DNA from: Bacteroidales bacterium | GTDB lineage: Bacteria; Bacteroidota; Bacteroidia; Bacteroidales; VadinHA17 | Assembly: GCA_049512815.1 (NCBI GenBank) | Contig: JBEKWS010000008.1 | Coordinates: forward strand, 7,013 to 71,012 | DNA: 64,000 bases | Reading direction: 5' to 3' | Position numbers and translations under genes: made by a program | The notes under the pieces: generated by a model | What the model saw: only the letters and a program-made list of their open reading frames with translations | What the model was told of the DNA's origin: nothing | The model's database searches: none | In this document: in pieces, positions 1 through 16,042 of the stretch | How the letters are laid out: each line of letters opens with the position of its first letter | Numbering within the stretch: position 1 is the first letter of the stretch

Positions 1-1226
1 GATGACTGGTAAAATCGGTATCCTTTATATTTGAGGATATTATTCATGAAAATCATAAAAGGTTTTTCAACATTTTCTCTCTTATCAAAAAGAACAACAT
101 CGCTTTTGTAACCTGAAGGGCTCGTAGAACCAGGGTATCTCTCGAGAATGAAATGATTAAGTTTAATAGCAAAAGGAAGCATTATTAACTTTGAGCCATA
201 GCTGATCTCAAATGTGTTCCCATCTAATACACAGAAACCTGAAGCAATTTTTTCACCCTCTCTGTCCCATAAATAAACTATTGCCGATTCTTTGCCGCTA
301 AAAAGATGAAAAATAAAAGCATTCAGCCCTGTATTCTGTTCAGCAGGTTTTACTGCAACTGCTTTAATAACACCGGCAACCGACATCTGTTGAGGTACAA
401 TTTTTATATCATTTATTGTTAAAATCTGCATCTTTCTTAATTCAACCCGTTTGCCTGGCGCTGTTGAAGTTACTGACTGCGTCATCATGCTCATCTCACC
501 AAGGATGAATCTGGAGGTAATAAAAAACCTCCCTGAATCAACTGAAATATTTACATCAGCCGGTTGTGGTGAATCAAACCCGAAAGAAATTCCATTTGAA
601 GTTTTCGTAAAACCCTTTTTAAGAGTAAGAATTTCTTTTGACATCATATTTTTCGTTATAAGCATGGAAACAACAGGTTCTCCTTCAGGGCTATCAGACA
701 AAACTTCAGAGGCATTCGGGATGATCTTTGCTAGTACCAGTTCATAATCCTTATTATTGATTTTAAGTACTTTTTTAAAATTATCGGCTGAAACTGAGGT
801 CATTGAATATTTTTCGGAATGGCTCGTAATGATAGTTCCATTAATATCTTTAACCGAATAGCCAATATATTTTTCATTCGAAAAGCACTCTTTCTGTTCT
901 TCTCCTTCGCGAATATGAATTGAACCTTCCCATCCGAAATACCTTGTTATCCCGGCACCAATAATCATAAGAATGAATGAAAGGTGAAAGAGAGCCACAG
1001 GTAGTTTTGATCTCCTGAAGAGTTTAAATATAACTAACTGCCCTACAAGGTTCACAGAAAGAAGTAACAAGATCAACTCGAACCATTTTGTATTATAGAC
1101 CATACTGTAAGAAGCAAGTGAACCAAAATCATTCTCGATAAATGTGGCCACTGCCATGGCAAAGGCAAATAATACAAAAAGGATCCCCATTAAAACCGGA
1201 GAAAAAAGAAATTTAATATATTTCAT
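1..1226 (-). CDS. Cytochrome c biogenesis protein, ResB/Ccs1 (CcsB) family. The N-terminus is in the window and the C-terminal part runs off the left edge.
   Basis: The minus-strand frame is open from the ATG at 1226-1224 to position 1, so it is absent from the ORF track. My translation begins MKYIKFLFSPVLMGILFVLFAFAMAVATFIENDFGSLASYSMVYNTKWFELILLLL, a ResB-like hydrophobic N-terminus. It sits next to many cytochrome c genes. Confidence 0.6.
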   Translation of the reverse strand, partial: MKYIKFLFSPVLMGILFVLFAFAMAVATFIENDFGSLASYSMVYNTKWFELILLLLSVNLVGQLVIFKLFRRSKLPVALFHLSFILMIIGAGITRYFGWEGSIHIREGEEQKECFSNEKYIGYSVKDINGTIITSHSEKYSMTSVSADNFKKVLKINNKDYELVLAKIIPNASEVLSDSPEGEPVVSMLITKNMMSKEILTLKKGFTKTSNGISFGFDSPQPADVNISVDSGRFFITSRFILGEMSMMTQSVTSTAPGKRVELRKMQILTINDIKIVPQQMSVAGVIKAVAVKPAEQNTGLNAFIFHLFSGKESAIVYLWDREGEKIASGFCVLDGNTFEISYGSKLIMLPFAIKLNHFILERYPGSTSPSGYKSDVVLFDKRENVEKPFMIFMNNILKYKGYRFYQS

Positions 1227-1325: not shown

Positions 1326-2093
1326 TTAACCCCTTTCTGATATCTGAATAAGCTTTTCCCTGTCCAGTATTTTTATCTTTGACGAATCAGAATAAATAAC
1401 TCCTGAAACCTCAAGTTTCTTCAGTATTCTTACAACACATTCCTTGGCCATATTTGTCATCTCGCCAAGTTCTTGACGTGATAGGATCATTTCATATTCG
1501 TCTTTGTGGAACACCTGATCTGAAAAATACAATAATGCGTCTGCAAGTCTGCCGGACATTTTCTTTTGTGACAGGTTGACCATCCTGTTAAGTGACCCAA
1601 GCGATTTTGCACTGATATCTTCGAGGAGGCCCTCTGCAAATGGTCCGTTCACCCTTACCAGATGTTTGAAAATCTCAAAATTTATAAAACAGGCCTGAAC
1701 AGCAGTTATAGCAGCAACTGTATAGGTATGTCTGGAATTTACGTATGCACCGGGACCCATTATCAACCTTCCGGGTAAAGCAATACTCATTATAAAATTT
1801 TTCCCGTTTAATCCCTCAATATATGTTTTTGCCATTCCGGATGCCAGAAACAAAGCATTAGATGTGGGAGAGCCCTGTTTCATCATAATCTCACCAGGTT
1901 TAAATGTGGCTTCATACCTGTTGTCGTTTACCAGTCGAAGCTCCTCTTTTGTCAGATGCTGAAAGTTTTTCCATCGGCGGGTGCAGGTCTCACAACTACT
2001 TATTAAATTGACCACTGACATATTTCCGTTTTTAAAGGGGTTCAAAAATAGGTTATTAATAACATAAGAATCTACAAAACTAACAAATATCAC
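1326..2093 (-). CDS. Crp/Fnr family transcriptional regulator. The likely true start is M25 at 2021.
   Basis: A cNMP-binding-like beta-roll is followed by a C-terminal HTH (SRQELGEMTNMAKECVVRILKKLEVSGVI). An N-terminal CETC motif is present. Confidence 0.8.
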   Translation of the reverse strand: MIFVSFVDSYVINNLFLNPFKNGNMSVVNLISSCETCTRRWKNFQHLTKEELRLVNDNRYEATFKPGEIMMKQGSPTSNALFLASGMAKTYIEGLNGKNFIMSIALPGRLIMGPGAYVNSRHTYTVAAITAVQACFINFEIFKHLVRVNGPFAEGLLEDISAKSLGSLNRMVNLSQKKMSGRLADALLYFSDQVFHKDEYEMILSRQELGEMTNMAKECVVRILKKLEVSGVIYSDSSKIKILDREKLIQISERG

Positions 2094-2101
2094 CCTATTA
2101 G

Positions 2102-2115
2102 TTGATATATATCAC
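2102..2115. promoter_or_regulatory. FNR/CRP-like imperfect palindrome TTGAT-ATAT-ATCAC
   Basis: Read directly from the sequence. It lies in the divergent intergenic region between the Crp/Fnr gene and the multihaem lipoprotein gene. Confidence 0.35.
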
Positions 2116-2228: not shown

Positions 2229-3536
2229 ATGAAAAACCTTTTCAGATTATTTTCATTTTTATTTTCGGCTGGATTTCTGCTCACAGCTTGTGAAGGTCCT
2301 ATGGGCCCTGCCGGGACTGCCGGAACAGATGGGAAAGATGCGAATGCGACCTGTACCCAATGTCATAATTCAACCGGTGTTGATTCGGTAAAAACCCAAT
2401 TTGCATATTCAAAACATTCCTATGGCGATGCAAATTTCGAGGAAGTCGGTAGTACAGGTTGTTCCCCTTGCCACGAATCAGAGGCCTTTAAATATGTAGT
2501 TGAAAACAATGTATCAACGGTCTTCTCAATTGTACCTCCTGCAACTACTTATTCCAATCCTTATGCTTCATCTCCTGATAAATCCTACGGCCCTATGCAG
2601 TGCAATATGTGCCATAGCAAATTACATACTACATATACCTTTGCTGATTTCATGCCTCTGACAACTACTGCAGCCGTGCCAATGACCTTTTTCGGTGGTG
2701 CAAAAACCATTGACCTTCCACAGGATGATAGCAAAAGCAATTTATGCGCTAAATGCCATCAACCTCGTCCTTTTACAAATTCAAACACAAATAAGAATGT
2801 ATTGAATTACGCCTTATTAGTAAGCAATCCGACTGCTGTATTCTACGATGCAGCTCAATCCAATAGTCTGAATGTTCTTAAACCCAGTTTCAGAACAAGT
2901 ACACATAATGGTACTACCGCAGCAATATTTGCCGGTATTGGTGGTGTGGAATTCGGAACAGGTTACACCAATTCACAGCATACAACTGTTGCATCATGCC
3001 AGGATTGCCATATGGCACCAATGACAGGAAAAGCCGGGGGACACACATTTTCTGCCCAGGGAAACTTTAACGGATGTAATGTTGCAGGTTGCCATTCGGC
3101 CAATCCTATATCTTCAGCAACTACATCAAAATACTGGAAACAGACCAGAGACGGGGTTAAAGCACAACTCGACCAGTTAGCAGCAAAATTACAGATCGGG
3201 GGCATTGATATTCTAAATAGAAATAGTGATGCGACTTCAAACCTATGGGCCGGACTCACAACAAATAACTATGACGGAAATCTGAATATATATGACCCTG
3301 TCAATAATCCTACCGGCATTGTCTATAATACAACTATGTTTCAGAATACAAGCACTACAGGCTTTACTGCTGAGCAGATCGCAGCTAATAATTTATTACC
3401 AAAAATTACCTTGACGAATGCACAAATGGGAGCTGTTATCAACTTCCAGTTATGCCTCAGAGATTTTAGTTTAGGTATTCATAATGCTGCATATACAACA
3501 ACTTTGTTAGCTAACTCAATAGCAGTACTTCCATAA
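2229..3536 (+). CDS. Multihaem c-type cytochrome lipoprotein with a short collagen-like GXY tract
   Basis: Signal peptide plus lipobox (LLTAC). Five CxxCH sites (CTQCH, CSPCH, CNMCH, CAKCH, CQDCH) plus one CX4CH (CNVAGCH). A GPMGPAGTAGTDGKD tract follows the lipid cysteine. Confidence 0.8.
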   Translation: MKNLFRLFSFLFSAGFLLTACEGPMGPAGTAGTDGKDANATCTQCHNSTGVDSVKTQFAYSKHSYGDANFEEVGSTGCSPCHESEAFKYVVENNVSTVFSIVPPATTYSNPYASSPDKSYGPMQCNMCHSKLHTTYTFADFMPLTTTAAVPMTFFGGAKTIDLPQDDSKSNLCAKCHQPRPFTNSNTNKNVLNYALLVSNPTAVFYDAAQSNSLNVLKPSFRTSTHNGTTAAIFAGIGGVEFGTGYTNSQHTTVASCQDCHMAPMTGKAGGHTFSAQGNFNGCNVAGCHSANPISSATTSKYWKQTRDGVKAQLDQLAAKLQIGGIDILNRNSDATSNLWAGLTTNNYDGNLNIYDPVNNPTGIVYNTTMFQNTSTTGFTAEQIAANNLLPKITLTNAQMGAVINFQLCLRDFSLGIHNAAYTTTLLANSIAVLP

Positions 3537-3615
3537 TCTATTTACATTAAATAAAGAATAATTTATTCAATCCTCAGAGTTATGCCTTTGGGGGTTGTTT
3601 TTTTGGAGCCGGCAT

Positions 3616-3671: not shown

Positions 3672-4067
3672 TTACTTCTTCAATGTTCTCAAGTAGTTGA
3701 CAACATTCCAGATATCATTATCTGATAATTTGCCTTCATACTTTGGCATTTCGCTTCTTCCGGTTTTTGTTTTATAAAAAAGATCGCCATCAGCAAGATT
3801 CTGGAATTCAGCTTTAGAAAAATCACCCGGGAATGTTTTAAGAGCCCTGGCTTTTACGCCATCGCCAAGACCAGCTTTCCCATGGCAGGATGCGCAATTC
3901 TTTGTATAAAGATCCATCCCGGTTTTGGTACTTGCGGCACTCTGAGCAATAGGGTTCTTCATTGAACTGGAGTTAGCCGGTACAACCCATGGCTTAGGCT
4001 GTGCCATCAATGTTGCGCTTAACATCAAAACCGAAGCGCTGGCAAATAAAAGTTTCAAAGTTTTCAT
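3672..4067 (-). CDS. Monohaem class I cytochrome c, secreted (paralog A)
   Basis: Signal peptide, a single CASCH site and a distal MPKY methionine. About 71 percent identical to the 7411-7806 product by hand alignment. Confidence 0.85.
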   Translation of the reverse strand: MKTLKLLFASASVLMLSATLMAQPKPWVVPANSSSMKNPIAQSAASTKTGMDLYTKNCASCHGKAGLGDGVKARALKTFPGDFSKAEFQNLADGDLFYKTKTGRSEMPKYEGKLSDNDIWNVVNYLRTLKK

Positions 4068-4581: not shown

Positions 4582-5163
4582 ATGAAGTATAAATTTTACG
4601 AAAACATTAAATTACCCCTTATAATAATAACACTTTTTCTTGTTTTGTTGTTTGGCTGTAAAAATAATGAATCAGACAATAATGGAATAAATAAAATAAA
4701 TAATGAAAAAGAAGAAATTAAAAGTACTGAACAATACAATGAATATGCTGTAGAACCACCTCCCTTCAGCGATGGTATATTTCCCTGCACTGATTGTCAT
4801 AAAAATTTAACTCCGAATCCTGTAAGAAGGGTATTAGTAGATTGGCATAACGATATTTCTGCAATGTTTAATCATGATAGTGAAAATCGTTGGTGTCTTG
4901 ATTGCCATGATCTTAAAAACAGAGATTCTTTAAGGCTTGCAAGTGGAAAATTATTAGATTTTAAGGAATCATATAAACTTTGCGGTCAGTGTCATGGGGA
5001 AAAATACAGAGACTGGAAAGTTGGGGTGCATGGAAAGAGAACTGGTGAATGGAACGGGAAAAAAGAATATTTGCTTTGTGTTAGTTGTCATAATCCTCAC
5101 TCACCAAAATTTAAAGAACTAAAGCCCGAACCGCCGCCAGTTATGCAGGAAGATATTAAATAA
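4582..5163 (+). CDS. Tetrahaem cytochrome c (c3-like) lipoprotein
   Basis: Lipobox LFGC. Four CxxCH sites (CTDCH, CLDCH, CGQCH, CVSCH). First gene of a three-gene plus-strand operon. Confidence 0.85.
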   Translation: MKYKFYENIKLPLIIITLFLVLLFGCKNNESDNNGINKINNEKEEIKSTEQYNEYAVEPPPFSDGIFPCTDCHKNLTPNPVRRVLVDWHNDISAMFNHDSENRWCLDCHDLKNRDSLRLASGKLLDFKESYKLCGQCHGEKYRDWKVGVHGKRTGEWNGKKEYLLCVSCHNPHSPKFKELKPEPPPVMQEDIK

Positions 5164-5189
5164 CTAGAATTATTGAATATTCAGCAAAA

Positions 5190-6080
5190 ATGAAAAACAA
5201 GAATTCAAGAAGATCGTTCATAAAAAATATTTCATTAGCAACATTTTCGGCACTTGCACTTTCAGGTTGTAATTCGGTAGTATTTGATGAATTTCTTCAG
5301 CGAAATTTTAAAACATTATCAAAAAAGGAAAAGGATAAAATAATTAAAAATCTGGAAACTAAATACAAAGAAAAGTACGGTAAAGAATTTCATGTGTCTG
5401 ACAAACCTGCGATAGATGGAACCTTATTTGGATATGCCCTCGATTTATCCAGATGTGTTGGATGCAGGAGATGTGTTTATGCATGTGTTAAAGAAAACAA
5501 TCAGTCGCGTGAGCCTCAAATTCATTATATAGAGGTGCTTCAGATGGAAAAAGAGAAAGGGATAGATTTTGCTCATTCCACTGCTCAGTATAATCCGGAA
5601 AAAGTTCCGGAAAAAGGATATTTTTATGTGCCAGTACAATGCCAGCAGTGTCAAAATCCTCCATGTGTAAAAGTTTGCCCGGTGAAAGCCACATGGCAGG
5701 AACCTGATGGTATTACTGTGGTTGATTACAATTGGTGTATCGGATGCAGGTATTGTATGGCAGCCTGCCCCTATGGAGCAAGGCATTTCAATTGGGGCGA
5801 GCCAAATGTGCCTATTGAAGAATTAAATACTGAAGTGCATTATTTAGGTAACAGGCCAAGAATGAAGGGTGTAGTAGAAAAATGTACTTTTTGTGTTCAA
5901 AGAGCCAGAGAAGGTAAATACCCGGCATGTGTTGAAATATGCCCGGTAGGAGCAAGAAAATTCGGAAATCTTTTGGACCCCGAAAGCGAAATCAGATACA
6001 TATTAGAAAACAAACGAGTAATTGTACTGAAACAGGAATTGAACACACAACCTAAATTCTACTATTTCTTTGGTATCTAA
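5190..6080 (+). CDS. Tat-exported 4Fe-4S ferredoxin-type subunit (NrfC/HybA/PsrB-like)
   Basis: Twin-arginine motif SRRSFIK. Four Cys clusters (CVGCRRCVYAC, CQQCQNPPCVKVCP, CIGCRYCMAACP, CTFC...CVEICP). Confidence 0.85.
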   Translation: MKNKNSRRSFIKNISLATFSALALSGCNSVVFDEFLQRNFKTLSKKEKDKIIKNLETKYKEKYGKEFHVSDKPAIDGTLFGYALDLSRCVGCRRCVYACVKENNQSREPQIHYIEVLQMEKEKGIDFAHSTAQYNPEKVPEKGYFYVPVQCQQCQNPPCVKVCPVKATWQEPDGITVVDYNWCIGCRYCMAACPYGARHFNWGEPNVPIEELNTEVHYLGNRPRMKGVVEKCTFCVQRAREGKYPACVEICPVGARKFGNLLDPESEIRYILENKRVIVLKQELNTQPKFYYFFGI

Positions 6081-6138
6081 ATAAAAGTTAATATTAAAGA
6101 AGCATTTAAAGTAGTTAAAAAAATAAATAGAATTTAAT

Positions 6139-7392
6139 ATGAATTTTATTCGTTTTATAACAGGCAGTATAAAAATAATTTTCCGCGGGAGCAAAACATA
6201 TTATACATGGCTGATCTTTTTGTTATTATTAATACTTTGGGGAGGCTTTGGTTATTCGGGTCAGTTAGCTCACGGGTTAATTAAAACCCACATGCGGGAT
6301 TCTGTATCCTGGGCTTTTTATATTGGAAACTTTACCTTTCTTGTCGGAGTCGCTGCAGCGGCTGTTATGTTAGTCATTCCAGCTTATATTTATGATTGGA
6401 AACCAATTAAAGAAATTGTAATTTTTGGTGAATTGCTGGCTGTCTGTTCTGTTATTATGTGTCTTTCATTTATTATGGTAGATATTGGAAATCCACTCAG
6501 ATTCTGGCACATGCTACCTCTGATAGGCACATTGAACTTTCCATCTTCTATGCTCTCCTGGGATTTTTTCGTTCTTAACATCTATTTATTTCTTAATTTA
6601 TTTGTTGTAACCTATTTATTATATTGTATTTTTTATAAAAAAGAATATAATAAATCAATTGTTTTACCGCTTGTTTTAATCAGCATTCCAATGGCTGTTG
6701 CTATCCATACAACGACAGCATTTCTTTATAATGCCTTACCTGGACGTGCATTCTGGAATAGCGCTTTACTTGCTCCAAGATTTTTAGCATCAGCTTTTTG
6801 CTCAGGTCCGGCTATTCTTTTGATTCTGTTTCAAATACTTAGAAAAACTACTAAGTTCGAAATAAAAGATGAAGCTATTTGGAAAATTGCTGAACTTATG
6901 GTCTATGCCATGTTCATTTACCTGTTTTTTACTATTGCTGAACTTTTTAAAGAGTTCTATTCCGGAACTGAGAATATCTTGTATTGGAAATATTTACTTT
7001 TCGGGATAGGGGAGCACAAAGAAATCGTTCCTTACAGCTGGTCGTCAATTATTATGGGATGTATCGCTTTTATACTTTTCTTAATTCCCAAAACCCGAAA
7101 AAATTTTCTGACTCTTAACATTGGGGCAGTTCTTATATATGGAAGCGTTTATGTAGAAAAAGGAATTGCTCTGATTATTCCTGCATTTACCCCGGATGTT
7201 TTAGGACAGATATATGTATATACCCCATCTATGACTGAAATCAGAACTGCGGTGATGATATTTTCAATTGGATTTTTACTTTTTACCTTTTTATCAAAAA
7301 TTGCTATAGCTATTGTATTTGAAAATTACAATATTGAGAGTCTAAGACCAAAAAAAGAGGCTGCCCAAATTAGTACAGCCTCGAATCTTTAA
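6139..7392 (+). CDS. NrfD/PsrC family polytopic membrane quinone-interacting subunit
   Basis: A 417 aa, highly hydrophobic multi-TM protein directly after the NrfC-like gene. This is the typical NrfCD gene order. Confidence 0.75.
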   Translation: MNFIRFITGSIKIIFRGSKTYYTWLIFLLLLILWGGFGYSGQLAHGLIKTHMRDSVSWAFYIGNFTFLVGVAAAAVMLVIPAYIYDWKPIKEIVIFGELLAVCSVIMCLSFIMVDIGNPLRFWHMLPLIGTLNFPSSMLSWDFFVLNIYLFLNLFVVTYLLYCIFYKKEYNKSIVLPLVLISIPMAVAIHTTTAFLYNALPGRAFWNSALLAPRFLASAFCSGPAILLILFQILRKTTKFEIKDEAIWKIAELMVYAMFIYLFFTIAELFKEFYSGTENILYWKYLLFGIGEHKEIVPYSWSSIIMGCIAFILFLIPKTRKNFLTLNIGAVLIYGSVYVEKGIALIIPAFTPDVLGQIYVYTPSMTEIRTAVMIFSIGFLLFTFLSKIAIAIVFENYNIESLRPKKEAAQISTASNL

Positions 7393-7410: not shown

Positions 7411-7806
7411 TTACTTCTTCAAAGTTCTTACATAGTTAACAACATTCCAGATATCATCATCTGATAATTTTCCTTCATATTTTGGCATGTCACCTCTTCC
7501 TGTTTTGGTTTTGTAGAAATGTTCTCCATCTGTCTGATTCTGTGATTCTGCTTTTGAAAAGTTCGTTGGGACGGTTTTAAGTGATTTTGCTTTCGGTCCA
7601 TCACCAAGACCAGTTTTTCCATGACATGCAGCACAGGTTTTTGCATAGAGAGACTGTCCTGCTATCGTGCTGGCATCGCTCATGGCAATAGGATTCTTCA
7701 TTGTTTTGAAGTTAGCCGGTACAACCCATGGTTTTGGTTGTGCAACCAAAGAAATGCTCAGAAACATAACTGCTGAGCAGATAAAGATCAATTTAAGAGT
7801 TTTCAT
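7411..7806 (-). CDS. Monohaem class I cytochrome c, secreted (paralog B)
   Basis: Signal peptide and a CAACH site. Same length (131 aa) as the 3672-4067 product and collinear with it. Confidence 0.85.
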   Translation of the reverse strand: MKTLKLIFICSAVMFLSISLVAQPKPWVVPANFKTMKNPIAMSDASTIAGQSLYAKTCAACHGKTGLGDGPKAKSLKTVPTNFSKAESQNQTDGEHFYKTKTGRGDMPKYEGKLSDDDIWNVVNYVRTLKK

Positions 7807-7877: not shown

Positions 7878-8495
7878 TTATTCGTCATCCGAAACATTGT
7901 AGCCCGTTATGATTCCCCTGAAAAGAGAAGTCGGCTTAGTTCCAAGTGTGCAGGTATAAACATGGATTATCATAAATATCGTAAGGAAGAAACCCATTGT
8001 GATATGCAGTATGTCGGTAAGAATAAGACCACTAATGCCAAAAAATGTTGTAATGGTTATTTCAGGTAGCAACAGACCGATTCCTGATATAATAAGTAAA
8101 GGAAAAGCCACATACATGGCGAGTACATAAGTTAACTTTTGAAGTGGATTAAATTTGCGTTCTTCAGTTACAGGAAACGGATGTTTTTCACCTTTGAACA
8201 TTCCACTTGAATAATATTTAAATTGCTTCCGCAGATTTAACAAAAAATCTTTTCTGCCAATTCTGTAATACCTTCCATTATTTGTCAGAAGGTTTCCTGT
8301 AACAAATAATATATAGTTTAAAACCAATACCATAGCAGCAAAATTATGCCATCTTACTGCTTTGGCAAACCCGACAACATAAGAGGCATTTTCTTTATCA
8401 GTATACTGCATACTTAAACCAGTAACAATAAGAATAAGAAACATTATTGCGTTTATAACATGCCAGATCCTGATCCATTTTGGGTAGAGATACAT
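7878..8495 (-). CDS. Membrane b-type cytochrome (cytochrome b561 / HydC-FdnI-like family)
   Basis: About 4-5 TM helices with conserved His in the helices (WHVINAIMF, RWHNFAAMV, DILHITMGFF). Lies 12 nt downstream of the heptahaem gene. Confidence 0.7.
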   Translation of the reverse strand: MYLYPKWIRIWHVINAIMFLILIVTGLSMQYTDKENASYVVGFAKAVRWHNFAAMVLVLNYILFVTGNLLTNNGRYYRIGRKDFLLNLRKQFKYYSSGMFKGEKHPFPVTEERKFNPLQKLTYVLAMYVAFPLLIISGIGLLLPEITITTFFGISGLILTDILHITMGFFLTIFMIIHVYTCTLGTKPTSLFRGIITGYNVSDDE

Positions 8496-8506
8496 CTTCG
8501 TTTCCT

Positions 8507-9508
8507 TTAATAATTATTGTCTTTCTTTCTTATCCGTAATATGATGTGAATGATTATGACACCGATTACAAGAACAAAAATAACCAAACTTATAAGGTTC
8601 AGATATTCATTTCTGTTTGCTCCAATAACATATGATGCATTTAAAATTATTCCGTTAAAGAATCCGTCGCGGCGTTGTTTTTTTGATTCAAATTTATAAA
8701 GTGAGGCCATAAGTATTGAGTTTTTCGAATGACATTCATTACAAAGTTTGATAGCTTCTTCTTTGGGTTTAATCAGATGCGATACAGGAACATTATTGTT
8801 GATTTGAGTGTGGCATTCGATGCATCGTACGTTTGCAAAATGTGAAGTCTGATTAGGCAGCCATTCATGCTTTTGAATAATATTTATCTCTTTTTTATCA
8901 CTCAGAAGCTGAAAACGGCTGAAGTCCGAGTGACAATTCAGACAGATAGCGTTGTCATAAGCAATAGTCTCCTTGAGATTATTATTGTTTCGGACCGAGA
9001 TCTTGTAAGTGTGAGGATTATGGCATTTCCAGCATGAGAATCCATCTCCCTCCATTTTAAAGTGAGTGCTCTTCTGATATTCAGCTTTTATCTCTTCAAA
9101 ATGATATTTCGCAAATTTCTCATCACCACTATGACAATCTATACAATTATACTTTTGCTCCATTCTCAGTTCTCCCGAATGAGGAAATTTTACATACTCT
9201 GCTGAATGACAGTCGGTACAACTGAAGCTCCTGTGATTTGATCTGTAAAATTCATTCTTATGTATAATCAATTCCGAACACATTTGGGCTTTGACCTGTC
9301 TTCCAAGAGTTGCATTAGAGTATTCATACTTCTCCTGTCCGTGACATTTAAAACAGCGGTTGTTATCAGCATCAAAAGGAGAGACAAAGGAAGTTGTGTC
9401 CAAAACTTTACCATTATCTGTTTTGAAACGGAAACTTCCGGCAGAAGGGAGAGAAATTAAATTGATAAAAGCATACAGGATAATTATCCGGAACATAAAT
9501 AATTTCAT
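8507..9508 (-). CDS. Heptahaem c-type cytochrome with a C-terminal membrane anchor
   Basis: Seven CxxCH sites (CFKCH, CTDCH, CIDCH, CWKCH, CLNCH, CIECH, CNECH). N-terminal signal and a C-terminal TM segment LISLVIFVLVIGVIIIHIIL. Confidence 0.85.
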   Translation of the reverse strand: MKLFMFRIIILYAFINLISLPSAGSFRFKTDNGKVLDTTSFVSPFDADNNRCFKCHGQEKYEYSNATLGRQVKAQMCSELIIHKNEFYRSNHRSFSCTDCHSAEYVKFPHSGELRMEQKYNCIDCHSGDEKFAKYHFEEIKAEYQKSTHFKMEGDGFSCWKCHNPHTYKISVRNNNNLKETIAYDNAICLNCHSDFSRFQLLSDKKEINIIQKHEWLPNQTSHFANVRCIECHTQINNNVPVSHLIKPKEEAIKLCNECHSKNSILMASLYKFESKKQRRDGFFNGIILNASYVIGANRNEYLNLISLVIFVLVIGVIIIHIILRIRKKDNNY

Positions 9509-9527: not shown

Positions 9528-10394
9528 TTAGAATCTGACATGAATATTAAACCCTATCAGCCATTGGCTTTTTTTGAAATCATTCGTGTTGAACACGAGA
9601 TTCCGCTGATTAATAATCTGATCATAGTTGGTTACAAATATCTGGAAAGAATGTGTTGCCGTACCAATTTCCCAACCGAGCGAGAGATTTGGTTTTGGCT
9701 GTACAGCAATACTTTGCTTTGTAAGTAGTTGATCATATTCAATTATCAGCGATTGGGAACCGAATAAATTTGCACGTGCTCCTGCTGAAAGTCCTATGTT
9801 AAGATTCTTATAACCTGCTGTAGAATCTATATTTTGAGGTACGGAATTGAAATATGCCAGCGAAGGAGCTATCTGAACCGAAAACATATTGTTTATTTTG
9901 CGGGCCACAATCAGTTGAGTGAAATAAGATAACCTGTGAATTTGCCTGAAGCTTTCGGCTGGTCCGAAATCTCCTGCCTGTTGTAAATTAACTACGATAT
10001 TGCCATAATATGAAAGTGAAACAGGCATTTTATTATCTTCTGTCTGCCGCAGGATAAGATACTTCCACTGAATATCCTGAAGCTGATAATTCTTTGTTGT
10101 CCCGGCGCCGATCATTAACCTGTCGGTGATGCCATAATTAAGACCTATCCGTGTATTTGCCGAACCATAAATGCCAAAAAGATCATGATAATTTTCAATC
10201 GGGCTGAATCTATGACTTATTTCCAGTTCCAGACCGCCTTTATATGGTGTTTCAACTGTATTAATATCAATAAGAGTGGTCGTTCCAAAAGTAAACCGAA
10301 CAGGTTTTGATGTTACCTGTTTCAGAGTATCTTCCTGCGCGAACAAAGGAGAAATGAATAACGATAAAGTTAAAAAGATAAAAAAGTTTTTCAT
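9528..10394 (-). CDS. Putative outer-membrane beta-barrel protein (resembles DUF5777-type barrels)
   Basis: Signal peptide ending LFAQ, an alternating amphipathic strand pattern and a C-terminal aromatic residue (HVRF). Confidence 0.55.
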   Translation of the reverse strand: MKNFFIFLTLSLFISPLFAQEDTLKQVTSKPVRFTFGTTTLIDINTVETPYKGGLELEISHRFSPIENYHDLFGIYGSANTRIGLNYGITDRLMIGAGTTKNYQLQDIQWKYLILRQTEDNKMPVSLSYYGNIVVNLQQAGDFGPAESFRQIHRLSYFTQLIVARKINNMFSVQIAPSLAYFNSVPQNIDSTAGYKNLNIGLSAGARANLFGSQSLIIEYDQLLTKQSIAVQPKPNLSLGWEIGTATHSFQIFVTNYDQIINQRNLVFNTNDFKKSQWLIGFNIHVRF

Positions 10395-10424
10395 GTTATT
10401 TAGTTTTAACAGGTTAAGATATTT

Positions 10425-10808
10425 CTAATTATTATGGGCTCCCTGGTTGATCCAGTAGAGAACTTCAAGTTTGTCTGCTGCGGTTGACCTTGGAATATGG
10501 GCAGAATTAGTGGTCATTTGATGATACAGTATGCTTGTCGCTCCGGGAGGAGTAATATAGCCCCCACTGCTAAGCGATGTATAAGATTTACCACTCCTGA
10601 GGTCAGGGAATTGAGTCTTTCCATTATGACAAGTGATACAAATGGAGTTGAATATTGGCTGAATATCTGTTTGAAAGTGCCAGGTTTGATTCGGGTCAAC
10701 AGAAGGTGGAGAATATGAATACTTTTCACACGAAGAAAATCCTTCTACTGCCGCAATCAGAACTAATGCAGTTAGTATCTGTCTGATCCTGTTTAATTTC
10801 TGATTCAT
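10425..10808 (-). CDS. Small lipoprotein with a PSCyt1-like monohaem cytochrome c domain
   Basis: Lipobox GFSSC. The motif IQPIFNSICITCHNG...PDLRSG...GGYITPG...LYWINQGA matches the planctomycete-type cytochrome C pattern as I remember it. Confidence 0.65.
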   Translation of the reverse strand: MNQKLNRIRQILTALVLIAAVEGFSSCEKYSYSPPSVDPNQTWHFQTDIQPIFNSICITCHNGKTQFPDLRSGKSYTSLSSGGYITPPGATSILYHQMTTNSAHIPRSTAADKLEVLYWINQGAHNN

Positions 10809-11043
10809 GTTTTTGATATTGTTAATTCGTTCACAAAGATATCTGATTATCCTGATTAATAGTTTTTTATCAGCAACAAATTTGATGCTTACACATGCTC
10901 TTTATCATGTCCAAAATTGATCTTTATCACTCACTCTGATGATATTTATTTTGCCTGAATTTACAAAAAGGATGGTGTAATGAGTGTAGAATAAAAAAAG
11001 GCTTCCTAAAAAGCCTTTTCCCCAATCTTCATTAATACATATT

Positions 11044-12822: not shown

Positions 12823-12849
12823 CGTTTTCAGATAATTATTTGGACTAAT

Positions 12850-13644
12850 CTATAATTCAAGTGATTGTACAATTAGTTCTGCAATGTCAAGATTTTTGAT
12901 CACTTCTTCTCTGTTTTTATACTTAAGACCATCAGTCAGCATTGTCATACAAAACGGACAGGCAGTTGCAATTACCGTAGCATCAGTCTTAAGGGCATCT
13001 TCAGTTCTCTCTATAAAAATTTCCTTGTTGCCTTTTTCTGCCTCCTTAAACATTTGAGCACCACCGCCTCCACAACATAATGCGAAACTTTTGTTTCTGT
13101 GCATCTCAACCAGATTACCAGTCAGCTTTTTAAGTATAATTCGTGGTTCGTCATATATATCATTTGCTCTTCCGAGATAACATGGATCGTGATAAGTAAT
13201 TGATATATTATTTAATGAAACAGAATCAATTTTTAAATTACCTTCTTCGATATTCCTGTTAAGAAACTGAAGGTAGTTAATAACTTCGTATTCACCGCCG
13301 AGATCAGGATATTCGTTCTTAAAGATGTTGAAACAATGCGGGCAAATGGTAATGATCCTTTTCACATCGTACATTCTGAATATCTCAATTAACCGCAGCG
13401 CCTGCATCTGAAAAAGCATTTCGTTGCCGGCACGTCTTGCAGGATCACCGTTGCAAGTCTCTTCTTTCCCAAGAACAGCATAACTGACATTCAGATACAT
13501 GAGGATTTTCGCAAATGCCCTGACAACCTTTTTGTACCTGTCATCAAAAGCTCCTGCACAACCTACCCAGAATAGGTATTCAGGCTTTTCTCCTCGTGCA
13601 AAAAGGTCTGCCATAACAGGGACTTCAATTTTCCGGGTTTCCAT
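12850..13644 (-). CDS. (Fe-S)-binding protein with CCG domains (HdrD/GlpC-like C-terminal half of an ETF-linked oxidoreductase)
   Basis: Two cysteine-rich CCG-type motifs, including ALCCGGGG. Confidence 0.8.
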   Translation of the reverse strand: METRKIEVPVMADLFARGEKPEYLFWVGCAGAFDDRYKKVVRAFAKILMYLNVSYAVLGKEETCNGDPARRAGNEMLFQMQALRLIEIFRMYDVKRIITICPHCFNIFKNEYPDLGGEYEVINYLQFLNRNIEEGNLKIDSVSLNNISITYHDPCYLGRANDIYDEPRIILKKLTGNLVEMHRNKSFALCCGGGGAQMFKEAEKGNKEIFIERTEDALKTDATVIATACPFCMTMLTDGLKYKNREEVIKNLDIAELIVQSLEL

Positions 13645-13712
13645 TTTTTATCTTTTCTTTAAACTTTTAATTACACAGAGAGCCACAGAAGGTTCACAGA
13701 GGTACACAGAGG

Positions 13713-15032: not shown

Positions 15033-15039
15033 AGTAAAC

Positions 15040-16011: not shown

Positions 16012-16042
16012 ATCGTAGTGATTTATTGTTTTTATCTAATTA

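What the first reader, a model, noticed from the sequence alone, without database searches (positions are those of the whole stretch)
2229..3536. Multihaem lipoprotein with a collagen-like GXY tether and a possible CX4CH haem site
- Directly after the lipobox cysteine the protein reads E-GPM-GPA-GTA-GTD-GKD (nt 2292-2342), which is five consecutive Gly-X-Y triplets.
- After five canonical CxxCH sites there is CNVAGCH (Cys 3075-3077, Cys-His 3090-3095). This is a CX4CH arrangement, known in a few multihaem proteins to bind haem with specialised or standard lyases.
- An acidic residue at position +2 after the lipid Cys fits surface-export signals described for Bacteroidota lipoproteins.
- A surface-tethered multihaem protein on a flexible stalk would be a candidate terminal reductase.
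Basis: partly seen in the sequence, partly recalled or inferred. Interest (0 to 1): 0.5.

Follow-up and report, generated by a model that had tools for sequence, protein, structure and literature searches.

The report
Collagen-stalked six-haem lipoprotein cytochrome
This gene encodes a lipid-anchored protein carrying six haem groups on a short collagen-like stalk, built from the core of a nitrite-reducing enzyme without its catalytic residues. It sits in a conserved, co-regulated gene cluster that looks like a route for passing respiratory electrons to the cell envelope or beyond in wetland Bacteroidales.

Summary
Both observations are real and conserved. ORF 2229-3536 encodes a 435-aa lipoprotein: lipobox Cys21, five uninterrupted Gly-X-Y triplets, five CxxCH motifs and one CX4CH motif.

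- **GXY tract:** In about 235 full-length relatives it follows the lipid Cys and varies from 3 to 45 triplets. Long versions hit Pfam Collagen.
- **CX4CH site:** Its Cys and His are invariant. It aligns with CxxCH or CX3CH in relatives and with haem 5 of NrfA, so it is a true sixth haem site.
- **Relation to NrfA:** Haems II-VI correspond to NrfA haems 1-5 (hhalign probability 92%). The NrfA active site is not kept: CxxCK becomes CxxCH, Tyr becomes Arg180 and His becomes Gly238. The "nitrite reductase" label on some homologs is probably wrong.
- **Context:** In 27-32 of 39 fully flanked loci the gene lies beside a Crp/Fnr regulator, a CbcBA-like cytochrome b plus seven-haem cytochrome, monohaem cytochromes c, a DUF5777 outer-membrane barrel and a small monohaem lipoprotein. 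An FNR-type box precedes both transcription units.

Best reading (about 0.5): the distal electron-transfer module, or terminal reductase, of a Bacteroidales envelope electron conduit. Surface exposure is unproven, because the tested export-signal consensus is not met. I found no description of this family.

The parts
2229..3536 (+). Gene for the 435-aa hexahaem lipoprotein cytochrome (stop codon included)
   Evidence: There are 1321 homologs and 829 clusters at 50% identity. The AF2 model has pLDDT 92.6.
2229..2291 (+). Lipoprotein signal peptide ending in the lipobox L-T-A-C (Cys21 at 2289-2291)
   Evidence: Read directly from the sequence. Cys21 is conserved in at least 90% of 148 relatives.
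2295..2339 (+). Collagen-like tract of five Gly-X-Y triplets (GPM GPA GTA GTD GKD)
   Evidence: The tract is present in essentially all full-length relatives, at 3-45 triplets. Long versions hit Pfam Collagen PF01391. In the monomer AF2 model residues 30-36 have pLDDT below 50.
2352..2366 (+). Haem I site, CTQCH. This haem is extra relative to NrfA.
   Evidence: Invariant C42, C45 and H46. It lies N-terminal of the region aligned to NrfA.
2460..2474 (+). Haem II site, CSPCH. It aligns with NrfA catalytic haem 1 (CWSCK).
   Evidence: hhalign. In the relative P0145 the Pfam PF02335 alignment starts at this motif.
2601..2615 (+). Haem III site, CNMCH (corresponds to NrfA haem 2)
2745..2774 (+). 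Haem IV site, CAKCH (corresponds to NrfA haem 3), followed by the conserved QPRPF. Arg180 takes the place of the NrfA active-site Tyr.
   Evidence: Q178 and R180 are conserved in at least 90% of 148 sequences.
2997..3011 (+). Haem V site, CQDCH (corresponds to NrfA haem 4)
3075..3095 (+). Haem VI site, CNVAGCH (CX4CH). It corresponds to NrfA haem 5.
   Evidence: C283, C288 and H289 are invariant. The site aligns with CxxCH or CX3CH in relatives and with the NrfA haem 5 motif CxxCH.
2102..2115 (.). FNR/CRP-type palindrome TTGATATATATCAC in the divergent crp-hexahaem intergenic region, 114-127 nt upstream of the ATG
   Evidence: A box is found at fixed distances upstream of the orthologous gene in 67 of 77 loci. 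It is not enriched within the window alone.
3568..3607 (+). Terminator-like hairpin plus T-run after the stop codon
   Evidence: a consensus match only.
1326..2093 (-). Crp/Fnr-family regulator. The likely true start is the ATG at 2021, which gives 231 aa as in homologs.
   Evidence: Pfam cNMP_binding plus HTH_Crp_2. It is adjacent in 32 of 39 fully flanked loci. Cys10, Cys13 and Cys111 are conserved.
1..1226 (-). 5' part of a ResB/CcsB (System II cytochrome c synthase, CcsBA fusion) gene that runs off the window start
   Evidence: Homologous loci encode a 1015-1029 aa ResB plus Cytochrom_C_asm fusion. It lies within 10 kb in 23 of 39 loci.
3672..4067 (-). Monohaem class I cytochrome c (131 aa)
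   Evidence: Pfam Cytochrome_CBB3 and Cytochrom_C. A monohaem cytochrome c is present in 29 of 39 loci.
4582..7392 (+). Three genes: a tetrahaem lipoprotein cytochrome, a DsrO/NrfC-like 4Fe-4S protein and a DsrP/NrfD-like membrane quinol-interacting subunit
   Evidence: DsrO/P-like genes lie near the hexahaem gene in 14 of 39 loci, so this is an accessory module rather than a core one.
7411..7806 (-). Second monohaem cytochrome c, a paralog of 3672-4067
7878..8495 (-). Dihaem cytochrome b (Ni_hydr_CYTB, 'thiosulfate reductase cytochrome b'-like), CbcB-like
   Evidence: Present in 32 of 39 loci. The architecture matches the CbcB description in bioRxiv 10.1101/2021.04.15.440034.
8507..9508 (-). 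Seven-CxxCH cytochrome c with a C-terminal transmembrane helix, CbcA-like
   Evidence: Sequence (7 CxxCH motifs and a hydrophobic C-terminus). Pfam hits. Present in 32 of 39 loci. It is fused to the cytochrome b in L004.
9528..10394 (-). DUF5777 outer-membrane beta-barrel protein (288 aa, signal peptide, C-terminal Phe)
   Evidence: PF19089 at 230 bits. Present in 30 of 39 loci.
10425..10808 (-). 127-aa lipoprotein with a single CxxCH motif, the first gene of the barrel/CbcBA-like operon
   Evidence: Present in 29 of 39 loci.
10917..10930 (.). Second FNR/CRP-type box (TTGATCTTTATCAC), about 110-122 nt upstream of the small-lipoprotein gene
   Evidence: The box sits at -122/-123 in 18 of 41 loci, which are nearly all the loci where this gene heads its own transcription unit. 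The control was 17 of 400 random segments.

Best explanation
**What the protein is**
- The gene encodes a lipid-anchored c-type cytochrome with six covalently bound haems.
- Haems II-VI are the five-haem core of the NrfA / octahaem nitrite reductase superfamily. Haem I is an N-terminal addition. Haem VI is attached through CX4CH instead of CxxCH.
- The NrfA catalytic apparatus has been lost. Twelve (near-)invariant histidines are enough to make all six haems bis-His. The protein is therefore most likely an electron-transfer module or broad-specificity reductase, not a nitrite reductase.
- Between the lipid anchor and the haem domain lies a collagen-like Gly-X-Y stalk. Its length changes freely in evolution. 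It acts as a spacer and probably brings three chains together.

**How it most likely works**
- The gene belongs to a conserved regulon controlled by a Crp/Fnr-type regulator.
- Electrons leave the menaquinol pool through a CbcBA-like cytochrome b plus seven-haem cytochrome. In this window a DsrOP/NrfCD-like module offers a second route.
- They then pass through periplasmic monohaem cytochromes c to an outer-membrane module made of a DUF5777 barrel and a monohaem lipoprotein.
- The stalked hexahaem lipoprotein is the distal member. It passes electrons to extracellular or bulky acceptors such as Fe(III) or Mn(IV) minerals, humic substances or partner cells.

**Shown versus inferred**
- Shown here: the motifs and their conservation, NrfA-core homology, loss of the NrfA active-site residues, gene clustering and the shared regulator box.
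- Inferred: actual haem occupancy, bis-His ligation of haem II, trimerisation, location on the cell surface, the direction of electron flow and the acceptor.
For: **Motifs and conservation**
- The motifs and lipobox are in the sequence.
- The GXY tract and sixth site are conserved in the 120 close homologs, and in 148 aligned sequences reaching about 30% identity.
- Long relatives carry 8-45 triplets; three of the five tested reach Pfam's Collagen threshold (P0139: 113 bits).

**NrfA homology**
- PF02335 scores 28.0 bits against a cut-off of 24.1.
- The family profile hits the G. lovleyi NrfA structure 6v0a at E=0.0095 and an octahaem nitrite reductase at E=0.024.
- hhalign against E. coli NrfA gives probability 91.8% and E=7.5e-7, and puts haems II-VI onto NrfA haems 1-5.
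- The only Foldseek hits of the high-confidence model (pLDDT 92.6) belong to this superfamily. They include the surface cytochrome OmhA.

**Loss of the active site**
- CxxCK is CxxCH.
- The catalytic Tyr aligns with the near-invariant Arg180.
- The catalytic His is an insertion absent from the target in one alignment and aligns with Gly238 in the other.
- The defining features of NrfA are taken from PMC12285233.

**Histidine count**
- H63, H226 and H272 are invariant. H133, H251 and H418 are conserved in at least 90% of sequences.

**Gene context (39 loci with at least 8 kb on both sides)**

| Neighbour | Loci |
|---|---|
| Crp/Fnr regulator | 32 |
| Cytochrome b | 32 |
| Seven-haem cytochrome | 32 |
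| DUF5777 barrel | 30 |
| Small lipoprotein cytochrome | 29 |
| All four redox partners together | 27 |

- In L055, L080, L084 and L062 the gene is co-directional with the cluster, as in an operon.
- FNR-type boxes sit at fixed distances upstream of both transcription units across loci.

**Links to extracellular electron transfer**
- CbcBA is a dihaem cytochrome b annotated as 'thiosulfate reductase-like' plus a seven-haem cytochrome with a C-terminal membrane anchor. It is required by Geobacter for low-potential extracellular acceptors. Homologs were noted in Bacteroidetes and proposed as a marker of extracellular electron transfer (bioRxiv 10.1101/2021.04.15.440034).
- The relative P0237 fuses the hexahaem domain to an Ig-like domain and to MtrC/MtrF-type domains (PF22113, 57 bits).

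**Hosts**
- The hosts are Bacteroidales, Prolixibacteraceae and Lentimicrobiaceae MAGs from fen, peat, lake and groundwater samples.
Against: - **Localisation is untested.** C-E-G-P-M has one acidic residue and does not meet the minimal Bacteroidota lipoprotein export signal. The small lipoprotein (C-E-K-Y-S) does not meet it either.
- **No secretion tag in long relatives.** Those with a plain signal peptide carry no obvious T9SS C-terminal domain.
- **The barrel is small.** A roughly 270-aa barrel cannot enclose a multihaem cytochrome as MtrB does, so how electrons would cross the outer membrane is unexplained.
- **Conserved residues in the former active-site pocket.** Near-invariant Q178 and R180 and invariant H226 lie in the region that forms the NrfA distal pocket. 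This is also compatible with a retained but altered catalytic site.
- **Haem II ligation could not be checked.** The tools do not expose model coordinates.
- **The stalk is short.** Five triplets are too few to form a stable triple helix unaided.
- **Structural similarity is weak.** Foldseek gives E of 0.6 or higher and TM about 0.3.
- **One alignment rests on memory.** The same register for haems 2-5 and the Tyr-to-Arg change was obtained independently with the PDB sequence 6v0a.
Confidence: 0.5

Rival explanations
1. The protein is a periplasm-facing electron carrier tethered to the inner leaflet of the outer membrane. The stalk lets the hexahaem domain reach into the periplasm. There it relays electrons between the inner-membrane CbcBA-like or DsrOP-like quinol oxidases and the outer-membrane barrel/monohaem lipoprotein module, or another periplasmic reductase. 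On this reading it is not itself the terminal, surface-exposed reductase.
For: - The export signal defined experimentally in Bacteroidota is not met.
- Long relatives have ordinary signal peptides and no evident secretion tag.
- All its clustered partners are periplasmic or membrane proteins.
- A short stalk of about 4 nm fits within the periplasm.
Against: - Soluble monohaem cytochromes c are already encoded in the cluster for that job.
- Stalks of up to 45 triplets would be about 38 nm long if triple-helical, which exceeds the width of the periplasm.
- A relative is fused to MtrC-type domains, which are typical of cell-surface cytochromes.
- C-E-G-P after the lipid Cys is strongly conserved (152 of 235). 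This suggests a sorting or recognition function of its own.
Confidence: 0.2
2. The protein is a catalytic reductase descended from NrfA with a remodelled active site at haem II. That site would have a His proximal ligand and Arg180, Gln178 and His226 in the distal pocket. It would reduce a soluble N-, S- or other oxyanion, or a small molecule. The lipid anchor would hold it at a membrane, and the quinol-oxidising modules encoded nearby would feed it.
For: - Haem II aligns with the NrfA catalytic haem.
- Q178 and R180 are near-invariant and H226 invariant, and all lie in segments homologous to the NrfA distal pocket.
- Some genuine NrfAs use CxxCH at haem 1 (PMC12285233).
- Related surface cytochromes such as OcwA also turn over nitrite and hydroxylamine (PMC6703420, listed; the activity detail is recalled from memory).
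- A NrfCD/DsrOP-like module is adjacent in this window and in 14 of 39 loci.
Against: - The NrfA Tyr and His are replaced by Arg and Gly.
- Six conserved non-motif histidines are enough to close all six haems.
- A soluble-substrate enzyme would not need the conserved partnership with an outer-membrane barrel and an outer-membrane lipoprotein cytochrome.
- No substrate-specific accessory genes are conserved nearby.
Confidence: 0.17
3. The protein is a bona fide ammonia-forming cytochrome c nitrite reductase (NrfA), as some MAG annotations name its homologs.
For: - PGAP names several homologs this way.
- PF02335 scores just above its gathering threshold, 28.0 against 24.1.
Against: - It has six haem sites rather than five.
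- Only about 150 of the 438 profile positions match.
- CxxCK is absent from the whole family.
- The catalytic Tyr and His are replaced.
- No NrfH is encoded nearby.
- No NCBIfam NrfA model matches.
Confidence: 0.03
4. The architecture is the same but the direction is reversed. The cluster would take up electrons from extracellular donors such as Fe(II), reduced humics, a cathode or a syntrophic partner. The barrel plus monohaem lipoprotein would act like a split Cyc2-type cytochrome-porin.
For: - A small barrel with a single-haem partner resembles the fused cytochrome-porin Cyc2 more than it resembles MtrAB. This resemblance is recalled from memory and was not tested.
- Monohaem class I cytochromes c are typical periplasmic partners in iron oxidisers.
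- In L004 the cluster lies beside cytochrome c oxidase genes.
Against: - CbcBA-type complexes are known as quinol oxidases for electron export.
- In several genomes the cluster lies next to acyl-CoA dehydrogenase, ETF and Fe-S oxidoreductase genes, which feed the quinone pool.
- An FNR-type box is consistent with induction under anoxia, although this regulator's signal is unknown.
Confidence: 0.08

Closest known systems
NrfA, the pentahaem cytochrome c nitrite reductase (Pfam PF02335), and the related octahaem nitrite reductases (TvNiR)
   Same: - The five-haem core has the same order and spacing. Target haems II-VI align with NrfA haems 1-5, including the distal histidines H251 and H272, which correspond to E. 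coli H275 and H301.
- The C-terminal helical motif 'SLGIHN' resembles the 'GIHMHAPEE' motif of NrfA. This is an observation from the sequence and was not covered by the alignment.
   Different: - It has an extra N-terminal haem.
- It has a lipid anchor and a collagen-like stalk.
- CxxCK is CxxCH, the active-site Tyr is Arg, and the active-site His is Gly or deleted.
- Haem 5 is attached through CX4CH.
- No NrfH partner is encoded nearby.
- Overall fold similarity is only marginal (TM about 0.3).
OcwA (Thermincola potens) and OmhA (Carboxydothermus ferrireducens, PDB 6qvm), which are NrfA-related cell-surface terminal reductases of Gram-positive bacteria
   Same: - They are multihaem cytochromes derived from the NrfA/Otr-type haem core and used for extracellular electron transfer rather than dedicated nitrite reduction (PMC6703420 and PMC9250108).
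- OmhA is the second-best Foldseek hit and has the highest probability, 0.47.
   Different: - They have nine or eleven haems rather than six.
- Their hosts are Gram-positive, with anchoring in an S-layer or cell wall.
- They have no lipobox and no collagen-like stalk.
- The Foldseek match is not significant (E=0.7).
Outer-membrane lipoprotein cytochromes of porin-cytochrome conduits (MtrC/OmcA of Shewanella; OmcB/ExtD-type of Geobacter)
   Same: - They are lipid-anchored multihaem cytochromes encoded next to an outer-membrane barrel and periplasmic cytochromes.
- The proposed role, as the outermost electron-transfer component, is the same.
- One relative (P0237) is fused to MtrC-type domains.
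   Different: - There is no significant homology. PF22113 scores 22 bits against a cut-off of 30.
- The barrel here is about 270 aa (DUF5777) rather than a 26-28-strand MtrB-type porin.
- The periplasmic partners are monohaem.
CbcBA of Geobacter sulfurreducens (a neighbour, not the finding itself)
   Same: - It pairs a dihaem cytochrome b annotated as 'thiosulfate reductase-like' with a seven-haem cytochrome c that has a C-terminal membrane anchor.
- Homologous clusters have been reported in Bacteroidetes.
- The window pair 7878-8495 and 8507-9508 has exactly this architecture.
   Different: - Sequence homology to GSU0593/GSU0594 was not tested here.
- The regulator here is of the Crp/Fnr type, not the sigma54-dependent BccR.
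CX4CH (and CX3CH) haem sites of class III tetrahaem cytochromes c3
   Same: A haem-attachment motif with four residues between the cysteines, sitting in an otherwise CxxCH multihaem protein. This comparison is from established knowledge and from the motif list in PMC9250108.
   Different: - The fold and family are unrelated.
- Here the site is homologous to a CxxCH site (NrfA haem 5).
- It toggles between CX2, CX3 and CX4 among relatives.
Bacterial collagen-like proteins (Pfam PF01391), such as Scl of Streptococcus, BclA of Bacillus and phage tail fibres
   Same: - It has uninterrupted Gly-X-Y repeats with Pro enriched at X (34%) and a variable repeat number.
- Long family members reach the Pfam Collagen threshold.
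- The tract is placed as a stalk between an anchor and a globular head.
   Different: - The target has only 5 triplets, which is below the Pfam detection limit and below the length expected for an autonomous triple helix.
- The head is a multihaem cytochrome. I found no precedent for this in the literature searched.

Membership tests
NrfA (pentahaem cytochrome c nitrite reductase) | A homologous five-haem core with conserved motif order and spacing | tested here: met
   - hhalign gives probability 91.8% and E=7.5e-7, with all five motifs in register.
- The family profile hits PDB 6v0a at E=0.0095.
- PF02335 scores 28.0 bits against a cut-off of 24.1, but over only about 150 of 438 positions.
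NrfA (pentahaem cytochrome c nitrite reductase) | Exactly five haems, with a catalytic haem 1 on CxxCK (Lys proximal ligand). A few NrfAs use CxxCH. | tested here: not met
   - There are six sites.
- The site aligned to haem 1 is CSPCH.
- No CxxCK occurs in any of 270 relatives.
- The feature is defined in PMC12285233.
NrfA (pentahaem cytochrome c nitrite reductase) | The conserved second-sphere catalytic residues Arg, Tyr and His | tested here: not met
   - Tyr216 aligns with Arg180.
- His264 aligns with Gly238, or falls in an insertion absent from the target.
- The catalytic Arg lies outside the alignable region.
- The feature is defined in PMC12285233.
NrfA (pentahaem cytochrome c nitrite reductase) | A dedicated redox partner, NrfH or NrfBCD, encoded alongside | tested here: inconclusive
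   - No NrfH is present.
- A tetrahaem plus NrfC/DsrO-like plus NrfD/DsrP-like trio is adjacent in the window, but in only 14 of 39 loci.
Six-haem c-type cytochrome (haem actually attached at all six sites) | Covalent haem at each CxnCH motif, including CX4CH | not testable with these tools
   Only indirect evidence is available.
- All 12 Cys and 6 His of the motifs are (near-)invariant.
- The CX4CH site is positionally equivalent to CxxCH in relatives and in NrfA.
Bacteroidota surface-exposed lipoproteins (carrying the lipoprotein export signal) | A lipobox with an invariant Cys after a signal peptide | tested here: met
   The lipobox is L-T-A-C21. Cys21 is conserved in at least 90% of sequences.
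Bacteroidota surface-exposed lipoproteins (carrying the lipoprotein export signal) | The minimal export signal: a polar or positive residue followed by at least two acidic residues at about +3 to +6, as in C-X-K-(D/E)2 or SDDDD/SDDFE | tested here: not met
   - The target is C-E-G-P-M-G.
- The family consensus is C-E-G-P (152 of 235) or C-[TV]-K-E-G-P (about 50 of 235). Both have only one acidic residue.
- The definition is from PMC5080379.
Collagen-like triple-helix proteins (PF01391) | Uninterrupted Gly-X-Y repeats | tested here: met
   - The target has five triplets.
- Relatives have 3-45 triplets with strict period-3 Gly.
- Of the five long relatives tested, three reach Pfam's PF01391 threshold (up to 113 bits); one scores below it and one has no hit.
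Collagen-like triple-helix proteins (PF01391) | Formation of a trimeric triple helix | not testable with these tools
   - Only a monomer prediction was possible, and the tract there has low confidence.
- Five triplets are short for an autonomous helix.
- PF01391 does not hit the target itself.
MtrC/OmcA family of outer-membrane decahaem cytochromes (PF22113) | Sequence membership in the family | tested here: not met
   PF22113 scores 22.1 bits against a cut-off of 30, over a single CxxCH-containing stretch.
CbcBA-type envelope electron-export systems (membership of the system, by context) | Encoded and regulated together with a dihaem cytochrome b plus a seven-haem, membrane-anchored cytochrome c | tested here: met
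   - Cytochrome b and the seven-haem cytochrome are present in 32 of 39 loci.
- Both transcription units share an FNR-type box.
- The architecture matches the published description.
- Direct sequence comparison with the Geobacter proteins was not done.

The most novel reading that the evidence does not exclude
The hexahaem lipoprotein would be the head of a previously unrecognised, Bacteroidota-specific outer-membrane electron conduit.
- Three chains are zipped together by the collagen-like stalk into an 18-haem trimer.
- The trimer sits on, or is threaded through, the small DUF5777 barrel, which is plugged by the monohaem lipoprotein.
- It is fed by CbcBA.
- The stalk length, about 4 nm for five triplets, sets the distance of the haem head from the membrane.

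This would make abundant fen, peat and sediment 'fermenter' Bacteroidales capable of respiring minerals, humics or partner cells. It would also add a collagen-stalked cytochrome as a new structural solution for extracellular electron transfer.
Probability: 0.25. Interest if true: 0.8.

Novelty: new variant of a known kind. Interest (0 to 1): 0.6.

Why it matters
- Bacteroidales are major carbon degraders in peatlands, fens and sediments and are usually modelled as fermenters. A conserved, anoxia-type-regulated conduit ending in a stalked hexahaem cytochrome would give them access to Fe(III), humic substances or syntrophic partners. That would change those budgets.
- **Evolution and structure.** The family shows the NrfA haem core being repurposed in Gram-negative bacteria into an electron-transfer module, in parallel with OcwA and OmhA in Gram-positives. 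It also joins a collagen-like stalk to a multihaem cytochrome, a combination I found no description of.
- **Annotation.** The family is currently unannotated, or mis-annotated as nitrite reductase. This inflates DNRA (dissimilatory nitrate reduction to ammonium) gene counts in metagenome surveys.
- **Haem attachment.** The free switching between CxxCH, CX3CH and CX4CH at one site is a natural experiment on the tolerance of System II haem attachment.

Tried and rejected
- **First AF2 run (43 close homologs).** It gave pLDDT 63.6, with the haem-rich N-terminal half below 50. Its Foldseek search was meaningless. A 148-sequence alignment fixed the model.
- **Foldseek on the good model.** It still gave only non-significant matches, so fold-level assignment rests on profile comparisons.
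- **Model coordinates.** They are not exposed. I could not measure which histidines face which haem, and so could not decide whether haem II is five- or six-coordinate.
- **Dedicated CX4CH lyase.** I considered this because a CcsBA gene is adjacent and W. succinogenes has motif-specific CcsBA isoenzymes. I rejected it as unsupported:
  - adjacency occurs in 18 of 30 CX4CH loci and 2 of 5 CxxCH loci;
  - the motif toggles among close relatives;
  - whether genomes carry a second CcsBA could not be checked.
- **Barrel and small lipoprotein.** The homolog search with the DUF5777 barrel returned only unnamed close orthologs with no fusions. PDB sequence searches found nothing for the barrel and only a weak match to the haem domain of hydrazine synthase alpha for the small lipoprotein.
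- **Cluster look-up of distant relatives.** It gave no names or taxa.
- **Literature.** There were no papers for 'DUF5777' and none combining 'collagen-like' with 'multiheme cytochrome'. General searches on Bacteroidetes extracellular electron transfer were uninformative.
- **FNR box within the window.** It is not enriched there. Its significance comes only from positional conservation across loci.
- **Split Cyc2 idea.** I considered the barrel plus monohaem lipoprotein as a split Cyc2, but I had no Cyc2 sequence in hand to test it.

Full report
**1. The observation**

ORF 2229-3536 (+) encodes a 435-aa protein.
- Residues 1-21 form a lipoprotein signal peptide that ends in the lipobox L-T-A-C21.
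- Directly after it come E22 and then GPM-GPA-GTA-GTD-GKD, five uninterrupted Gly-X-Y triplets at nt 2295-2339.
- Five CxxCH motifs follow, at C42, C78, C125, C173 and C257.
- One CX4CH motif follows them: C283-NVAG-C288-H289, at nt 3075-3095.
- In shuffles of the protein, a run of at least 5 period-3 glycines arose in 163 of 200,000 trials. C....CH arose in 241 of 20,000 trials.

**2. Conservation**

The protein has 1321 homologs in the 90%-clustered database. It matches 829 clusters at 50% identity.

The GXY tract:
- Almost all full-length sequences among the 120 closest (at least 58% identity) have the tract immediately after the lipid Cys, at 2-9 triplets; the low counts are mostly N-truncated entries.
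- Across 235 full-length relatives the tract has 3-45 triplets. The median is 5 in close relatives and 8 in distant ones.
- Pro occupies 34% of X positions. Asp occupies 33% and Ala 24% of Y positions.
- The residues after the lipid Cys are almost always C-E-G-P or C-[TV]-K-E-G-P.
- A few relatives replace the lipid anchor with a plain signal peptide and an N-terminal domain of about 120 aa. These carry 8-45 triplets that hit Pfam Collagen. P0139 scores 113 bits.
- The tract is therefore a family-wide collagen-like stalk of variable length, not a chance run.

The sixth haem site:
- It is CN[VT]xxCH in about 110 of the 120 close homologs.
- It is a canonical CxxCH in the same alignment column in about 10 of them.
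- In distant relatives it is CxxCH, CX3CH or CX4CH.
- C283, C288 and H289 are invariant in a 148-sequence alignment.

**3. What the haem domain is**

Sequence evidence:
- Pfam gives a marginal but above-threshold match to NrfA (PF02335, 28.0 bits against 24.1) over part of the profile.
- No NCBIfam NrfA model matches.
- A profile of the family finds the G. lovleyi NrfA structure 6v0a (E=0.0095) and an octahaem nitrite reductase (E=0.024) among PDB sequences.
- hhalign of the 148-sequence profile against E. coli NrfA gives probability 91.8% and E=7.5e-7.

The alignment register:
- Target haems II, III, IV, V and VI align with NrfA haems 1 to 5.
- The CX4CH site is the counterpart of NrfA haem 5.
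- H251 and H272 align with the NrfA distal histidines H275 and H301.
- The register for haems 2-5 is the same in the independent alignment with 6v0a.

Structure:
- AF2 with the deep alignment gives a confident model (pLDDT 92.6, pTM 0.88). Only the GXY tract has low confidence.
- Foldseek finds only weak matches with E of 0.6 or higher and TM about 0.3. All are from this superfamily: TvNiR, the S-layer undecahaem OmhA and NrfA.
- The protein is thus a strongly diverged derivative of the NrfA five-haem core with one extra N-terminal haem.

**4. It is not a nitrite reductase**

NrfA is defined by a five-coordinate haem 1 on CxxCK and by three second-sphere residues, Arg, Tyr and His (PMC12285233). 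Here:
- The haem 1 equivalent is CSPCH, and no relative has CxxCK.
- The Tyr position is the near-invariant Arg180, within the motif CHQPRPF.
- The catalytic His is absent. It aligns with Gly238 in one alignment and falls in an NrfA-specific insertion in the other.

The family also has six (near-)invariant histidines outside the motifs: H63, H133, H226, H251, H272 and H418.
- Three or four of them correspond to NrfA distal ligands.
- Two, H133 and H226, are new.
- Only one haem has been added, so there is one more histidine than the added haem needs.
- The parsimonious reading is that all six haems are bis-His, and that the former catalytic haem has been closed.
- I could not verify this, because model coordinates are not exposed.
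- The conserved Q178, R180 and H226 in the former pocket keep an 'altered enzyme' reading alive.

**5. Genomic context**

I fetched the 80 best loci of 254 matching species genomes. All are Bacteroidales, Prolixibacteraceae, Lentimicrobiaceae or Mariniphaga MAGs from fen, peat, lake and groundwater samples. The closest, at 87% identity, are 'fen_'-labelled Bacteroidales MAGs, which I take to be from Stordalen Mire.

In the 39 loci with at least 8 kb on both sides, the neighbours occur as follows:

| Neighbour | Loci of 39 |
|---|---|
| Crp/Fnr regulator | 32 |
| Dihaem cytochrome b | 32 |
| Seven-haem cytochrome c with C-terminal membrane anchor | 32 |
| DUF5777 beta-barrel | 30 |
| ~125-aa lipoprotein with one CxxCH | 29 |
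| Monohaem cytochrome c | 29 |
| Barrel, small lipoprotein, cytochrome b and seven-haem cytochrome all together | 27 |

- In L055, L080, L084 and L062 the hexahaem gene is co-directional with the others, as in an operon.
- In L004 the cytochrome b and the multihaem cytochrome are fused.
- The cytochrome b plus seven-haem pair has the architecture of Geobacter CbcBA. CbcBA is a quinol oxidase required for low-potential extracellular acceptors. The authors noted homologs in Bacteroidetes and proposed them as a marker of extracellular electron transfer (bioRxiv 10.1101/2021.04.15.440034).
- The DsrJOP/NrfCD-like trio at 4582-7392 is accessory, present in 14 of 39 loci.
- The acyl-CoA dehydrogenase, ETF and Fe-S cluster next door is shared only by closer relatives (7-12 of 39).

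**6. Co-regulation**

- An FNR/CRP-type palindrome (TTGATATATATCAC, 2102-2115) lies 114-127 nt upstream of the hexahaem ATG.
- A box allowing up to 2 mismatches (most hits exact or one mismatch) occurs at fixed distances upstream of the orthologous gene in 67 of 77 loci.
- A second box (10917-10930) lies about 110-122 nt upstream of the small-lipoprotein gene, which heads the barrel/CbcBA-like operon.
- That box is at -122/-123 in 18 of 41 loci. These are nearly all the loci where the gene starts its own transcription unit. It is missing where the gene directly follows the hexahaem gene.
- Only 17 of 400 random segments have a box.
- Within the window alone the motif is not enriched.
- The adjacent regulator keeps Cys10, Cys13 and Cys111. 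This is reminiscent of Fe-S-sensing FNR proteins, but I did not test it.
- The hexahaem gene and the conduit-like operon therefore appear to form one regulon.

**7. Localisation and the stalk**

- The tested export signal needs K, Q or S followed by at least two acidic residues, as in C-X-K-(D/E)2, SDDDD or SDDFE (PMC5080379).
- C-E-G-P-M has only one acidic residue.
- The extreme conservation of C-E-G-P may mean a different sorting or docking signal, but that is speculation.
- The association with an outer-membrane barrel and the fusion of relative P0237 to Ig-like and MtrC-type domains favour an outward-facing role. So do stalks of up to 45 triplets, about 38 nm if triple-helical.
- The missing export signal, and the absence of an obvious secretion tag in the long relatives, favour a periplasmic location.
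- Five triplets span about 4.3 nm if helical. That is too short for an autonomous triple helix, so trimerisation would need help from the head domain or the membrane.

**8. The CX4CH site and biogenesis**

- A ResB/CcsA fusion gene (System II) lies just upstream. It is cut by the window start and is complete in L001 and L002.
- Motif-specific CcsBA isoenzymes exist in W. succinogenes, so I tested for a link.
- Adjacency does not track the motif: 18 of 30 CX4CH loci and 2 of 5 CxxCH loci have the gene nearby.
- The motif also toggles between close relatives.
- A general synthase that tolerates CX2-4CH is the simplest reading.

**9. Verdict**

- The sequence observations are confirmed, and they define a large family.
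- I found no description of that family: it has no dedicated Pfam or NCBIfam model, no source gives it a name other than 'hypothetical' or a mistaken 'nitrite reductase', and the literature searches found nothing.
- The most likely function is the distal electron-transfer or terminal-reductase module of a conserved, Crp/Fnr-controlled envelope electron conduit (confidence about 0.5).
- The rivals are a periplasm-facing tethered carrier (0.2), a remodelled catalytic reductase (0.17), reversed electron uptake (0.08) and a true NrfA (0.03).
- Novelty: a new variant of a known kind. The haem core and the system logic are known, but the collagen-stalked lipoprotein architecture and the small-barrel partnership are new.

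Noticed in passing
window 2102-2115 and 10917-10930: FNR/CRP-type palindromes (TTGAT-N4-ATCAA, one mismatch each) lie about 110-127 nt upstream of both the hexahaem gene and the small-lipoprotein/DUF5777/CbcBA-like operon. They are positionally conserved across dozens of MAG loci, which suggests a single regulon.
   Followed up: yes
window 1326-2093 (-): The Crp/Fnr-family regulator probably starts at the ATG at 2021, giving 231 aa as in homologs, rather than at the listed GTG. It has three conserved cysteines (C10, C13, C111 in the 231-aa numbering; 40-43 of 43 homologs). This hints at an Fe-S or redox sensor like FNR.
   Followed up: partly
window 7878-9508 (-): A dihaem cytochrome b ('thiosulfate reductase cytochrome b'-like, 166 bits, below its cut-off) sits beside a seven-CxxCH cytochrome with a C-terminal transmembrane helix. 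This is the architecture of Geobacter CbcBA. The two are fused into one 927-aa protein in L004.
   Followed up: partly
window 9528-10808 (-): A DUF5777 outer-membrane barrel (288 aa) always travels with a ~125-aa lipoprotein carrying one CxxCH motif. That motif shows weak similarity to the haem domain of hydrazine synthase alpha. The pair could be a split cytochrome-porin, but nothing is known about either protein and no paper mentions DUF5777.
   Followed up: partly
window 3672-4067 (-), 4582-7392 (+), 7411-7806 (-): A tetrahaem lipoprotein, a DsrO/NrfC-like Fe-S protein and a DsrP/NrfD-like membrane protein are bracketed by two paralogous 131-aa monohaem cytochrome c genes. The trio looks like an inserted accessory quinol-oxidising module, and it is present in only 14 of 39 related loci.
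   Followed up: partly
window 1-1226 (-): This is the N-terminal part of a ResB/CcsB (System II CcsBA fusion) cytochrome c synthase gene, cut by the window edge. It lies next to the cytochrome cluster in 23 of 39 loci, but it does not correlate with CX4CH versus CxxCH at the sixth haem site.
   Followed up: yes
window 11044-16792 (-): These genes encode an acyl-CoA dehydrogenase, a CCG-domain protein, an Fe-S oxidoreductase and EtfA/EtfB, directly beside the cytochrome cluster. The arrangement is syntenic in the closer relatives (L001, L002, L006, L007, L015-L018 and others). It could feed beta-oxidation electrons into the quinone pool that the cytochromes drain.
   Followed up: no
relatives P0127, P0133, P0139, P0145, P0148 (not in the window): These long family members swap the lipid anchor for a plain signal peptide and a ~120-aa N-terminal domain beginning 'AQAPxxMSYQAV(I/V)R'. 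They carry 8-45 collagen triplets before the hexahaem domain. P0237 instead adds an Ig-like domain and MtrC-type multihaem domains C-terminally, for 14 haem sites in total.
   Followed up: partly
loci L035, L048, L052, L056, L059, L063, L082: Some genomes carry two tandem or nearby paralogs of the hexahaem gene.
   Followed up: no
homologs P0035, P0044, P0049, P0096, P0120 (public annotations): PGAP names these orthologs 'ammonia-forming cytochrome c nitrite reductase subunit c552'. The active-site comparison indicates this is probably a mis-annotation, and it could inflate nrfA/DNRA counts in metagenome surveys.
   Followed up: yes
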